From Escherichia coli (lineage in GTDB: Bacteria; Pseudomonadota; Gammaproteobacteria; Enterobacterales; Enterobacteriaceae), in the NCBI RefSeq assembly GCF_046105845.1, contig NZ_CP151004.1: DNA of 64,000 bases, one strand, 5' to 3'. Below the pieces are notes generated by a model. The model ran no database searches, was not told the DNA's origin, and saw only the letters and a list, made by a program, of their open reading frames with translations. The translations under genes were made by a program, and so were the position numbers. Numbering within the stretch: the stretch's first letter is position 1; each line of letters opens with the position of its first letter. Of the stretch, positions 41,797-48,744 are shown piece by piece.

Positions 41797-42719
41797 CGCT
41801 GGCGATTGACAAAACGGCGGCGCTGCTCGTCGTTCATAAAGGTCCAGGCAATAAAGCGACTCTGCTTTTGCCCCTGGGCCATCTCTTTTTTAACCACCTT
41901 CACCGCGCCCACGTCCGTCAGGGCACGATACAACGGCGGTAAGTTTTCACCACGAGATACAAGTGAGGTAAACCACATCACCTGCTTCGCGAAGCCTTTG
42001 CTCTCTTCAATCATCTTTTTGATAAAAGCGACTTCACCGCCTTCACACCACAACTCCTGTTGCTGACCACCAAAGTTCAGTGCATCGTCTTTGTTTAGCC
42101 CCAGGTTACGGCGTTTACGTTCACTACCTGCCCGTGCCGCAGCGGCGGAATCGTGGAATGGCGGGTTACACAAGGTCGCGTCGTATTGCTCGTTTTTATG
42201 GATGATTCCGTTAAAAATCGCCCCACTCTCTTTTTGCCGACGCAGACGAATGGCGCGGTTAAGCCCCGGATTAGCACTGATGATCGCCTGCGCACTGCTT
42301 AACGCCTGGCTGCTGGTTTCACTACCAGTAAAACGCCAGCCATATTCATGTACGCCAATCAGCGGATAAATACAGTTCGCACCAACGCCGATATCCAGAA
42401 TGCTGGCATTAGCTGGAATTGATCCTGTTGCTTCTGCCAGTAAATCGGCAAGGTGATGAATATAATCCGCCCGGCCCGGTACTGGTGGGCAGAGAAAACC
42501 GTCGGGGATATCCCAGTTCGCTACGGCGTAAAAATGGGCCAGCAATGCCTTATTGAGCGCCTTCACCGCCAGCGGATTGGCAAAGTCTACGCTTTGCTCC
42601 CCGGCGGGTGTAAGCGTGAGGAATTGCCTGAGTTCAGGATTGACCTGACAAAGCGTGGCGAGATCGTAGCGGCTGTGATGACGGTTGCGCGGATGCAACC
42701 CCGGTTTCTGGGCGGACAT
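41793..42719 (-). CDS. rlmF: 23S rRNA m6A1618 methyltransferase RlmF, 308 aa
   Basis: ORF 41793..42809; start at internal Met ([15 protein letters not shown]...) matching RlmF; NPPF motif. Confidence 0.9.
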
Positions 42720-42994
42720 AGCATTCTCCTTTAAGCAGCGGCGTAAGATACCCGCATAACGCGACAGGGTAAATATCTGGCTGCGTTTATCATTTCTATA
42801 AACCTTCACATGGCTATGGTTTATGGCAATTCATCATAAAAATCAGCATCATGCATGTCATTGATTTGTCTTGTTTTGTAAAAATATATCGTTCAAAAAA
42901 CAAGCGCATCTCTGTCAATTTTTTGCGTCATTTTCATCGCCCAGGCGACCTACACTTATCAGGCACTACCCGTTGTATTTATGAGGATGTCATT

Positions 42995-43255
42995 ATGAAA
43001 AAGTGCCTCACACTACTGATTGCCACCGTCCTGAGCGGAATCTCTCTCACGGCTTATGCCGCGCAACCGATGAGTAATCTGGACAGCGGTCAGCTACGGC
43101 CCGCCGGTACCGTTTCGGCAACTGGCGCATCAAACCTAAGCGATCTGGAGGATAAACTGGCAGAAAAAGCGCGCGAACAAGGCGCGAAAGGTTATGTCAT
43201 TAATTCCGCGGGCGGAAATGACCAGATGTTCGGTACTGCAACCATCTACAAATAA
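42995..43255 (+). CDS. mcbA: Small periplasmic DUF1471-family protein McbA (YbiM), 86 aa
   Basis: ORF 42851..43255; start at MKKCLTLLIATVLSG (signal peptide); C-terminal GTATIYK motif. Confidence 0.85.
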   Translation: MKKCLTLLIATVLSGISLTAYAAQPMSNLDSGQLRPAGTVSATGASNLSDLEDKLAEKAREQGAKGYVINSAGGNDQMFGTATIYK

Positions 43256-43390
43256 CCCCACCAACGTAACTGCATTCGCCTCTGGATGCAGTTTTCGCCT
43301 GTTTTGTAATCAAAAAACATCAAATATGAACGAAATGTAAATAAATGTATTTCTTTTTCGCGCAATGGGTGATAGAAAATCGCGCCAAGT

Positions 43391-43417
43391 GATAATGCTT
43401 ATCAAAATTATTATCAC
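43391..43417 (+). promoter_or_regulatory. Fur box upstream of fiu
   Basis: GATAATGCTTATCAAAATTATTATCAC closely matches the Fur consensus GATAATGATAATCATTATC; fiu is a known Fur-regulated receptor. Confidence 0.7.
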
Positions 43418-43519
43418 TTGCACGAACGCTATCACGAGATTAACAGTGGCATCGCATCCGCAGAGAGGCTTTCTCGTGGCAGTGAAAATTTCAACATATA
43501 AGAAAAAGTCACCTGCAAA

Positions 43520-45802
43520 ATGGAAAACAATCGCAATTTCCCTGCCAGACAATTTCATTCGCTCACGTTCTTTGCCGGTCTTTGTATTGGCATCACGCCT
43601 GTGGCTCAGGCACTCGCCGCCGAAGGGCAAGCAAACGCGGATGACACGCTGGTTGTCGAAGCATCAACGCCTTCGCTTTATGCGCCACAACAATCTGCTG
43701 ATCCGAAATTCTCGCGTCCGGTAGCGGATACTACCCGCACGATGACGGTGATTTCTGAACAAGTGATTAAAGATCAGGGCGCAACCAACCTTACCGACGC
43801 GCTCAAAAACGTCCCCGGCGTGGGTGCGTTTTTTGCGGGTGAGAACGGTAACTCCACCACTGGCGACGCCATTTATATGCGTGGTGCCGATACCTCTAAC
43901 AGTATTTATATTGATGGCATTCGCGATATCGGCAGCGTCTCGCGCGACACCTTCAATACCGAGCAGGTCGAAGTGATTAAAGGGCCGTCCGGCACCGACT
44001 ACGGGCGCAGCGCACCAACAGGCTCAATCAATATGATCAGCAAGCAGCCGCGCAATGATTCGGGCATTGACGCCTCCGCCAGTATTGGCAGCGCCTGGTT
44101 CCGCCGCGGCACGCTGGACGTCAATCAGGTCATTGGTGATACCACTGCGGTGCGCCTCAATGTGATGGGCGAAAAAACGCACGATGCCGGACGCGACAAA
44201 GTCAAAAATGAGCGTTACGGCGTCGCCCCTTCTGTCGCTTTTGGCCTTGGTACAGCGAATCGTTTGTATCTTAATTATCTACATGTCACCCAGCACAACA
44301 CGCCAGACGGCGGCGTTCCGACCATCGGTTTGCCGGGCTATTCTGCCCCATCTGCGGGAACAGCGGCCCTGAATCATTCCGGAAAAGTTGATACTCATAA
44401 CTTTTACGGCACGGATTCCGATTACGACGATTCGACCACCGACACCGCTACCATGCGTTTTGAGCACGACATCAACGATAACACCACCATTCGCAATACT
44501 ACCCGTTGGTCGCGCGTGAAGCAGGATTACCTGATGACGGCGATTATGGGCGGGGCGTCGAATATTACCCAGCCCACCAGCGATGTGAATAGCTGGACCT
44601 GGTCACGCACGGCGAATACTAAAGATGTAAGTAATAAAATTCTCACCAACCAGACCAACCTGACCTCGACGTTCTATACCGGTTCTATCGGTCATGATGT
44701 CAGTACCGGCGTGGAATTTACCCGTGAAACGCAGACTAACTACGGCGTTAATCCGGTGACGTTACCTGCGGTAAATATTTATCATCCTGACAGCAGCATT
44801 CATCCCGGCGGCCTGACGCGCAACGGCGCAAACGCTAATGGTCAGACGGATACCTTCGCAATTTACGCCTTCGATACGCTGCAAATCACCCGTGATTTTG
44901 AGCTGAACGGCGGGATCCGTCTGGATAATTATCATACTGAATATGACAGTGCCACCGCCTGCGGCGGCAGCGGACGCGGTGCCATCACCTGCCCTGCTGG
45001 CGTGGCAAAAGGTTCTCCGGTCACCACCGTCGATACCGCCAAGTCGGGCAATCTGGTGAACTGGAAAGCCGGGGCGCTGTATCACCTGACGGAAAACGGC
45101 AATGTCTATATTAACTATGCCGTTTCCCAGCAGCCTCCGGGCGGCAACAACTTCGCCCTTGCGCAGTCTGGCAGCGGTAACAGTGCCAACCGCACCGATT
45201 TTAAACCGCAAAAAGCCAACACCAGCGAGATTGGCACCAAATGGCAGGTTCTGGATAAACGCCTGTTGCTCACCGCCGCGCTGTTCCGTACTGATATCGA
45301 AAATGAAGTTGAGCAAAATGATGACGGAACTTACTCGCAATACGGTAAGAAACGCGTCGAAGGCTATGAGATATCCGTGGCCGGGAATATCACTCCCGCG
45401 TGGCAGGTGATTGGCGGCTATACCCAGCAAAAAGCAACCATCAAAAACGGCAAAGATGTTGCCCAGGATGGTTCCTCATCGCTGCCGTATACCCCGGAGC
45501 ACGCCTTTACCTTATGGAGCCAGTATCAGGCAACCGATGATATCTCTGTTGGCGCAGGCGCACGCTATATCGGTAGTATGCATAAAGGTTCTGACGGCGC
45601 GGTGGGAACGCCAGCGTTTACCGAAGGTTACTGGGTCGCCGACGCTAAACTGGGGTATCGGGTTAATCGCAATCTCGACTTCCAGCTAAACGTCTACAAC
45701 CTGTTTGATACCGATTACGTCGCCTCAATCAACAAGAGCGGCTACCGTTATCACCCGGGCGAGCCAAGAACCTTCCTGCTCACGGCCAATATGCATTTCT
45801 GA
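43520..45802 (+). CDS. fiu: TonB-dependent catecholate siderophore receptor Fiu, 760 aa
   Basis: Full ORF with signal peptide, TonB box region and C-terminal Phe beta-barrel terminus. Confidence 0.94.
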
Positions 45803-45843
45803 TTCAGATGTGGGGCGCAGGCCCCACTTTTTGGAGAACTTGT

Positions 45844-46521
45844 ATGATGTACCACATTCCCGGCGTGCTATCGCCACAGGACGTCGCCCGTTTTCGCGAA
45901 CAACTGGAACAAGCCGAATGGGTGGATGGACGCGTCACCACTGGCGCACAAGGTGCGCAAGTTAAGAACAATCAACAGGTAGACACCCGCAGCACGTTAT
46001 ACGCCGCCCTGCAAAATGAGGTGCTGAACGCGGTTAACCAACATGCTTTGTTCTTTGCCGCGGCCTTGCCGCGTACCCTTTCCACGCCGCTGTTTAATCG
46101 CTATCAGAACAATGAAACTTATGGTTTTCATGTGGATGGCGCAGTACGCAGTCACCCACAAAACGGCTGGATGCGCACTGACCTTTCTGCCACGCTGTTT
46201 TTAAGCGATCCACAAAGCTACGATGGCGGCGAACTGGTCGTTAATGACACCTTCGGGCAACATCGGGTAAAACTTCCGGCAGGCGATCTGGTGTTGTATC
46301 CCTCCAGCAGCTTGCATTGCGTGACACCCGTAACCCGCGGCGTACGAGTGGCATCATTTATGTGGATCCAGTCGATGATCCGTGATGATAAAAAGCGCGC
46401 CATGCTGTTTGAACTGGACAACAATATTCAGTCGCTGAAAAGCCGCTACGGCGAAAGTGAAGAGATCCTGTCGCTGCTCAATCTTTATCATAACCTGCTG
46501 CGGGAATGGTCGGAGATCTGA
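45844..46521 (+). CDS. ybiX: PKHD-type Fe(II)/2-oxoglutarate-dependent hydroxylase YbiX, 225 aa
   Basis: ORF 45808..46521; start at [10 protein letters not shown]; HxD...H iron-binding motif (HVDG ... H). Confidence 0.88.
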
Positions 46522-46594
46522 CGCTTGAACTGCCCGAGTTCGCCCCTATATTAGCTACACTTAACTGTACAAGTATTGATATGGGGAGGACGAT

Positions 46595-46861
46595 ATGGCA
46601 TCCGGTTGGGCTAACGATGACGCCGTCAACGAACAGATCAACAGTACAATTGAAGATGCGATTGCCCGCGCTCGGGGTGAAATTCCGCGTGGCGAAAGCC
46701 TGTATGAATGTGAAGAGTGCGGAGCCACCATCCCGCAAGCCCGTCGGGAAGCCATTCCTGGTGTGCGCTTATGCATTCATTGTCAGCAGGAGAAAGATTT
46801 ACAAAAACCAGCTTATACAGGATATAATCGCAGAGGTTCGAAAGACAGCCAGTTACGTTAA
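46595..46861 (+). CDS. ybiI: DksA/TraR-type C4 zinc-finger protein YbiI, 88 aa
   Basis: Full ORF; CxxC-N17-CxxC (CEECG ... CIHCQ). Confidence 0.88.
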   Translation: MASGWANDDAVNEQINSTIEDAIARARGEIPRGESLYECEECGATIPQARREAIPGVRLCIHCQQEKDLQKPAYTGYNRRGSKDSQLR

Positions 46862-47125
46862 CTACAACTGGCGGGATGTATAGCGAGTATAATTTGTATT
46901 TTGCGTGGCATTCCGTGCCTTTAACGCTGTCGTGACTGCCACGCTGCATAAAACAAGTCCATAAGTTCAACAAATAAATGGATTATCAGTATGTTAGATA
47001 TCAATCAATTTATTTGAACAAGGCGGTCAATTCTCTTCGATTTTATCTCTCGAAAAAAAACGTGATACTCATCACATCGACGAAACAACGTCACTTATAC
47101 AAAAATCACCTGCGAGAGATTAATT

Positions 47126-47386
47126 ATGAAAACTATCAATACTGTTGTTGCTGCTATGGCTCTTTCAACTCTGTCATTTGGCGTGTTTGCCGCGGAACCG
47201 GTAACGGCATCCCAGGCACAGAACATGAATAAAATCGGCGTGGTTTCTGCCGATGGCGCATCCACCCTCGATGCCCTGGAAGCGAAACTGGCTGAGAAAG
47301 CTGCGGCAGCTGGGGCGAGTGGATACAGCATCACTTCTGCCACCAACAACAATAAATTAAGCGGTACTGCGGTAATTTATAAGTAA
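47126..47386 (+). CDS. ybiJ: Small periplasmic DUF1471-family protein YbiJ, 86 aa
   Basis: Full ORF with signal peptide; C-terminal GTAVIYK; paralogue of mcbA. Confidence 0.88.
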   Translation: MKTINTVVAAMALSTLSFGVFAAEPVTASQAQNMNKIGVVSADGASTLDALEAKLAEKAAAAGASGYSITSATNNNKLSGTAVIYK

Positions 47387-47524
47387 TTCGTAAGCCGGAT
47401 CAGGCGTTTACGCTACGTCCAGCACAAGTATTTCCCTGTCTGTTTGCCGACAGACGCATATGCTCTAACCCTCATTGATCCTATATTACCCTTGTTTGCC
47501 CGTCCGTTACTGGACGGGCTTTTT

Positions 47525-48744
<1,220 letters not shown>

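What the first reader, a model, noticed from the sequence alone, without database searches (positions are those of the whole stretch)
42995..47386. Two paralogous small secreted DUF1471-type proteins (mcbA and ybiJ) flank the fiu-ybiX-ybiI cluster
McbA (42995..43255) and YbiJ (47126..47386) both have signal peptides, a central SATGASNLSDLE / SADGASTLDALE segment and a C-terminal G-T-A-x-I-Y-K ending. This indicates an ancient duplication bracketing the Fur-regulated fiu region. It is a native feature, noted for completeness.
Basis: seen in the sequence. Interest (0 to 1): 0.2.

Follow-up and report, generated by a model that had tools for sequence, protein, structure and literature searches.

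The report
Known mcbA and ybiJ paralogs flank fiu
The two small genes are the well-known E. coli genes mcbA and ybiJ, related members of one family of small exported stress proteins that sit either side of the iron-uptake gene fiu; this is an ordinary, already described part of the chromosome.

Summary
ORFs at 42995..43255 and 47126..47386 (+ strand) each encode 86 aa. Both are 100% identical to E. coli K-12 McbA (YbiM) and YbiJ. They align without gaps at 47% identity, or 50% once the signal peptide is removed (about 12 SD above shuffles). Both match Pfam PF07338 (DUF1471/YdgH_BhsA-like) and their own NCBIfam models well above cut-off.

They flank fiu-ybiX-ybiI, as in 5416 of 5426 complete E. 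coli genomes. The layout is old. Among 37 sampled Enterobacteriaceae loci, 31 carry an mcbA-type gene upstream, and 36 of the 36 where the downstream side can be seen carry ybiJ. Pantoea, Rouxiella, Serratia and Tatumella have only fiu-ybiX, elsewhere in the genome. More distant Proteobacteria have only a TonB-dependent receptor next to ybiX.

One inference is not shown: that these two copies arose from each other by a local duplication. BhsA is as close to each of them as they are to one another, and the branching order changes with the outgroup.

Only fiu has a Fur-box-like site. mcbA and ybiJ are separate transcription units. The paralogy is already published. Interest is low.

The parts
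42890..42994 (+). Conserved mcbA upstream region, the presumed promoter and operator. The blocks are CGTTCAAAAAA, GTCAATTTTTTGCG and CCTACACTTATCAGGCAC, followed by a GAGGA ribosome-binding site.
   Evidence: The blocks are invariant across Escherichia, Citrobacter and Leclercia in alignment A4. They are unrelated to the ybiJ upstream sequence. Their function as a promoter or as a McbR operator was not tested here.
42995..43255 (+). mcbA (ybiM) coding sequence, an 86-aa precursor. Residues 1-22 are the Sec signal peptide (42995-43060). Residues 34-86 are the DUF1471 domain (43094-43252).
   Evidence: ORF. Pfam PF07338 69.8 bits. NCBIfam NF040473 174.5 bits against cut-off 110. 86/86 aa identical to K-12 McbA. 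Signal-peptide rules met. The AlphaFold2 model has pLDDT about 90 for residues 34-86 and a beta-alpha-beta-beta topology. Its best PDB matches are solved DUF1471 domains.
43268..43293 (+). Terminator-like hairpin just after the mcbA stop codon: a 10-bp stem followed by UUUUCGCCUGUUUUG.
   Evidence: Folding energy -14.1 kcal/mol, z = -2.9, with 1 of 200 shuffles folding as well. This implies that mcbA is transcribed separately from fiu.
43385..43421 (.). Fur-box-like array in the fiu promoter (GTGATAATGCTTATCAAAATTATTATCAC).
   Evidence: This is the joint best match to the 19-bp Fur consensus in the 64-kb window (15/19 at 43391). Overlapping 14/19, 13/19 and 13/19 matches follow at 6-bp phasing. 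The array overlaps a sigma-70-like site at 43369-43396.
43520..45802 (+). fiu, the catecholate siderophore TonB-dependent outer-membrane receptor.
   Evidence: Pfam Plug and TonB_dep_Rec_b-barrel domains. RefSeq annotation of the matching E. coli locus. 756/760 aa identical to K-12 Fiu.
45810..45827 (+). GC-rich hairpin plus a T run between the fiu stop codon and the ybiX start codon.
   Evidence: Terminator-like site. Folding energy -19.3 kcal/mol, z = -3.9.
45844..46521 (+). ybiX, a PKHD-type 2OG-Fe(II) hydroxylase. It is the ancient partner of the receptor gene.
   Evidence: Pfam PF13640 and PF18331. A receptor gene lies next to ybiX in 79 of the 80 loci recovered across Proteobacteria.
46595..46861 (+). 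ybiI, a DksA/TraR-type C4 zinc-finger protein.
   Evidence: Pfam PF01258. Annotation. The gene is absent from the Kluyvera loci and from all loci outside the Enterobacteriaceae.
47061..47076 (.). CRP-consensus-like palindrome CGTGATACTCATCACA inside the conserved ybiJ upstream block.
   Evidence: It differs by one mismatch from TGTGA-N6-TCACA. The half-sites are invariant across Escherichia, Citrobacter and Leclercia. The count in the window is not significant on its own (4 found, 1.75 expected). Function was not tested.
47126..47386 (+). ybiJ coding sequence, an 86-aa precursor. Residues 1-22 are the Sec signal peptide (47126-47191). Residues 34-86 are the DUF1471 domain (47225-47383).
   Evidence: ORF. 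Pfam PF07338 64.8 bits. NCBIfam NF007611 173.1 bits against cut-off 110. 86/86 aa identical to K-12 YbiJ. Signal-peptide rules met.
47431..47526 (+). ybiJ 3' UTR stretch equivalent to the K-12 sRNA ZbiJ. It ends in the intrinsic terminator at 47498-47519 plus a T run.
   Evidence: K-12 annotates zbiJ (b4814) here. Alignment A2 maps it to 47431-47526 with near identity. The terminator has 9 pairs, and the stretch containing it (47490-47530) folds at -17.6 kcal/mol, z = -4.3.

Best explanation
These are the native E. coli genes mcbA (ybiM) and ybiJ, two of the roughly ten paralogs of the DUF1471 (YhcN / BhsA-McbA) family.

What each gene makes. Each encodes an 86-aa precursor. A 22-residue Sec signal peptide is removed, which leaves a 64-aa periplasmic protein built from a single beta-alpha-beta-beta DUF1471 domain. 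This fold resembles the envelope-stress sensor RcsF.

How they are transcribed. Each gene is its own transcription unit. mcbA has its own conserved upstream region and its own terminator hairpin. ybiJ has a different conserved upstream region and a terminator that also closes the 3' UTR-derived sRNA ZbiJ. Only fiu, which lies between them, carries a Fur box. The three units are therefore neighbours, not one regulon. According to the literature, mcbA is repressed by McbR/YncC and affects colanic acid and biofilm, and ybiJ is stress-induced. Those points are not tested here.

Evolution. The receptor-ybiX pair is very old across Proteobacteria. Within the Enterobacteriaceae it sits between rlmF and ybiB, with a DUF1471 gene on each side, and it has been inherited vertically since. 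ybiJ is retained everywhere it could be observed. mcbA evolves faster and has been lost several times. There is no gene conversion between the two.

Shown and inferred. Shown here: homology, family membership, the fold of McbA, the layout and its phylogenetic spread. Inferred: export to the periplasm (by sequence rules and from the literature), a role in stress and the envelope (literature), and which duplication produced which copy (unresolved).
For: Identity and homology: (47% over the full length, 50% for the mature part, z about 12). The proteins are 100% identical to K-12 McbA and YbiJ.

Family: Pfam PF07338 at 69.8 and 64.8 bits against cut-off 27. NCBIfam McbA model 174.5 bits and YbiJ model 173.1 bits against cut-off 110. 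PDB sequence hits to the DUF1471 entries 2noc and 2ma4. The AlphaFold2 model of McbA has pLDDT about 90 in the domain. Its Foldseek top hits are 4evu (YdgH C-terminal domain, TM-score 0.80, rmsd 1.8 A), 2jna and 2ma8 (SrfN), 2m2j and 2noc, followed by RcsF 2y1b.

Native and conserved: 5416 of 5426 complete E. coli genomes carry the 5-kb region, annotated mcbA, fiu, ybiX, ybiI, ybiJ.

Age: a census of 80 ybiX loci. McbA-slot proteins form one clade and YbiJ-slot proteins form another in the neighbour-joining tree.

Separate units: hairpins, different conserved upstream blocks, and Fur-like matches only at fiu.

No gene conversion: within-genome McbA/YbiJ identity is 46.0% and cross-genome identity is 45.0% (sd 5%). 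DNA identity between the two genes is 132/261.

Rates: between Escherichia and Citrobacter, McbA is 63-74% identical and YbiJ 80-85%.

Literature: the paralogy, the family and the McbA function are described in PMC4092069. 'YbiJ is a paralog of McbA', the Sec signal and the RcsF-like fold are described in bioRxiv 10.1101/2025.02.11.637708.
Against: Nothing contradicts the identification. Several limits apply.
- The signal peptides were judged by simple rules, not by a trained predictor or by experiment.
- Only McbA was modelled.
- The locus census covers only species whose YbiX contains one of six exact 8-residue words (120 candidate stretches). Salmonella and many other genera were therefore not sampled.
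- No regulation (McbR, Fur, CRP) was tested.
- The molecular function of DUF1471 proteins is still unknown in the literature.
Confidence: 0.93

Rival explanations
1. The bracket comes from one local duplication. An ancestral DUF1471 gene at this locus was duplicated, in tandem or across the fiu cluster, so mcbA and ybiJ are each other's direct sister paralogs.
For: The two genes have the same length (86 aa) and align without gaps, including the signal peptide. They share orientation and lie 3.9 kb apart. Their mean identity on the mature columns (45%) is slightly above McbA-BhsA (39%) and YbiJ-BhsA (43%). The four-point bootstrap favours (McbA,YbiJ) in 63-64% of replicates with YahO as outgroup. 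Other DUF1471 paralogs are also linked in K-12: yjfN and bsmA are adjacent, and yjfY lies 7.7 kb away.
Against: With YhcN as outgroup only 23% of replicates favour (McbA,YbiJ), and 65-67% favour (McbA,BhsA). The neighbour-joining tree places the McbA clade nearer the BhsA-like sequences. Each protein scores higher on the BhsA model than on its partner's model. Only about 64 alignable sites are available, so the matter is unresolved rather than refuted.
Confidence: 0.4
2. The two copies arrived independently. They derive separately from a BhsA-like ancestor, or one was translocated here, and their position on either side of fiu is coincidence in a family with about ten copies per genome.
For: BhsA is as close to each as they are to each other by BLASTP: bit scores are McbA-BhsA 68.2, YbiJ-BhsA 70.9, and McbA-YbiJ 52.8-69.7. 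Both score second-best on the BhsA NCBIfam model. The topology depends on the outgroup. mcbA has a patchier distribution and a faster rate than ybiJ. Salmonella is reported to lack a close McbA homolog (PMC4092069).
Against: Two family members within 4 kb, in the same orientation, in every sampled genus that has the rlmF-fiu-ybiB context is more linkage than random placement of about ten copies in a 4.6-Mb genome would give. This argument is an inference and was not computed. The relatives nearest the McbA and YbiJ clades in the NJ tree that were looked up sit in unrelated contexts and give no donor locus.
Confidence: 0.5
3. The linkage is functional. The two DUF1471 proteins work with the Fiu/YbiX catecholate-iron uptake system and are co-regulated with it.
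For: ybiJ stays next to fiu-ybiX in 36 of 36 observable Enterobacteriaceae loci, and mcbA in 31 of 37.
Against: Fur-consensus matches upstream of mcbA and ybiJ do not rise above background: 13/19, a score reached at 36 positions in the window. mcbA has its own terminator-like hairpin and ybiJ its own terminator, and each has its own conserved upstream region. fiu-ybiX occurs without any DUF1471 gene in Pantoea, Rouxiella, Serratia and Tatumella, and receptor-ybiX pairs occur without one in 34 other proteobacterial loci. mcbA has been lost from six loci that keep fiu. In Citrobacter sp. Awk 4 fiu is deleted while both DUF1471 genes persist.
Confidence: 0.05

Closest known systems
E. coli K-12 McbA (YbiM, b0806) and YbiJ (b0802)
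   Same: The amino-acid sequences are identical (86/86 each). The neighbours and gene order are the same: ybiO, rlmF, mcbA, fiu, ybiX, ybiI, ybiJ, ybiE, hcxB, ybiB.
   Different: There are only silent nucleotide differences: 99.2% and 97.3% nucleotide identity. The window also lacks a REP-like insert of about 93 bp that K-12 carries just after the ybiJ stop codon.
BhsA (YcfR), the multiple stress resistance DUF1471 protein
   Same: It belongs to the same family and has the same architecture: a signal peptide plus one DUF1471 domain, 85 aa. It is 43-47% identical to both McbA and YbiJ, which is as close as they are to each other. In K-12 it also has a sRNA at the 3' end of the gene (BhsB), as ybiJ does (ZbiJ).
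   Different: It is encoded at an unlinked locus (comR-bhsA-ldtC). It is a separate subfamily with its own NCBIfam equivalog model.
[quoted passage not shown]
   Same: The predicted McbA domain superposes on them. TM-scores normalised to the target are 0.51-0.80. The rmsd is 1.8-2.3 A for the YdgH domains and for SrfN entry 2ma8, but much larger for the NMR entries 2jna (6.6 A), 2noc (9.1 A) and 2ma4 (3.5 A). There are also sequence-level hits to these entries.
   Different: Sequence identity is 22-34%, and they belong to different paralogous subfamilies. YdgH has three domains.
RcsF, the outer-membrane lipoprotein that senses envelope stress
   Same: The fold is similar (2y1b: TM-score 0.60, rmsd 3.0 A). 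The literature notes the same resemblance for YbiJ.
   Different: Sequence identity is 12%. RcsF is a lipoprotein with a disordered linker and disulfide bonds. McbA and YbiJ have no cysteine in the mature part and no lipobox. They are not members of the RcsF family.

Membership tests
DUF1471 / YhcN / BhsA-McbA family (Pfam PF07338) | A match to the family profile above the curated cut-off, over the whole domain. | tested here: met
   McbA 69.8 bits and YbiJ 64.8 bits against cut-off 27, covering profile positions 1-55 of 55.
DUF1471 / YhcN / BhsA-McbA family (Pfam PF07338) | A small protein (about 90 aa) with a single domain and an N-terminal Sec signal peptide. | tested here: met
   Each is 86 aa. 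Each has a basic N-terminus, a hydrophobic core and an AxA-type site after residue 22. The check was rule-based only. The literature describes YbiJ as carrying a Sec signal and McbA as periplasmic.
DUF1471 / YhcN / BhsA-McbA family (Pfam PF07338) | A mixed alpha+beta fold like the solved DUF1471 domains. | tested here: met
   Tested for McbA only. The AlphaFold2 domain has pLDDT about 90. The top Foldseek PDB hits are all DUF1471 structures: 4evu, 2jna, 2m2j, 2ma8 and 2noc. YbiJ was not modelled here.
DUF1471 / YhcN / BhsA-McbA family (Pfam PF07338) | Distribution restricted to the Enterobacterales. | tested here: inconclusive
   Only 431 cluster representatives out of 1.84 billion match at E <= 1e-3, but that library carries no taxonomy. 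No DUF1471 gene lies within 10 kb of ybiX in the 34 loci sampled outside the Enterobacterales.
McbA subfamily (NCBIfam NF040473) | A score above the model cut-off, and the position between rlmF and fiu. | tested here: met
   174.5 bits against cut-off 110. 86/86 aa identical to K-12 McbA. Position confirmed.
McbA subfamily (NCBIfam NF040473) | Repression by McbR/YncC and an effect on colanic acid and biofilm. | not testable with these tools
   Known from Zhang et al. 2008, as cited in PMC4092069 and PMC13343897. No operator motif was available to scan for.
YbiJ subfamily (NCBIfam NF007611) | A score above the model cut-off, and the position between ybiI and hcxB/ybiB. | tested here: met
   173.1 bits against cut-off 110. 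86/86 aa identical to K-12 YbiJ. Position confirmed.
Sister paralogs from one local duplication | The two are each other's closest relatives, forming exclusive sister clades. | tested here: inconclusive
   BhsA is equally close. The four-point bootstrap for (McbA,YbiJ) is 23% with YhcN as outgroup and 63-64% with YahO as outgroup.
Fur regulon (for mcbA and ybiJ themselves) | A Fur box in the gene's own promoter region. | tested here: not met
   The best matches upstream of mcbA and ybiJ are 13/19, a score reached at 36 positions in the window. The fiu promoter has 15/19 plus phased 14/13/13 matches. This is a consensus scan only.

The most novel reading that the evidence does not exclude
The persistent linkage of a DUF1471 gene on each side of fiu-ybiX in Enterobacteriaceae is not mere inheritance. 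It would reflect a functional tie, for example YbiJ or McbA acting as periplasmic, RcsF-like monitors of envelope state coupled to catecholate-iron uptake. In that reading ybiJ would have its own CRP-type control and its own 3' UTR sRNA.
Probability: 0.05. Interest if true: 0.35.

Novelty: already known. Interest (0 to 1): 0.06.

Why it matters
It matters little. The finding re-identifies two annotated E. coli genes whose paralogy and family membership are already published.

The comparison across genera adds some detail:
- the age of the layout;
- the steady retention of ybiJ against the faster evolution and repeated loss of mcbA;
- the absence of gene conversion between the two;
- the point that BhsA is equally close, so a simple local-duplication account is unproven.

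This is useful background for anyone studying the still unknown molecular function of DUF1471 proteins. It does not open a new question.

Tried and rejected
- Searching the 19-bp Fur consensus with up to 3 mismatches found nothing in the window. I replaced it with a graded match count.
- I fetched yncJ because I wrongly recalled it as a DUF1471 gene. It is annotated DUF2554 and was dropped. Nine K-12 DUF1471 genes were identified here. The literature gives ten for E. coli, and the tenth was not located.
- To look for an ancestral tandem pair or a donor locus, I looked up the genomic context of three relatives placed near the McbA and YbiJ clades in the NJ tree: P0032, P0055 and P0048. They sit in unrelated or very short contigs, so this was uninformative.
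- Gene conversion between the two copies is rejected. Within-genome identity equals cross-genome identity, and DNA identity between the genes is about 50%.
- The Rfam scan of 42000-48000 found nothing above gathering score. There was only a weak REP-related naRNA4 hit.
- A literature search for 'ZbiJ' returned only an author's surname.
- A paper on McbR contained no operator motif I could use.
- Many of the 150 family representatives are chimeric or frameshifted products from raw assemblies. Only 67 full-length ones were used in the tree.
- No maximum-likelihood phylogeny software was available, so only distance methods were used.

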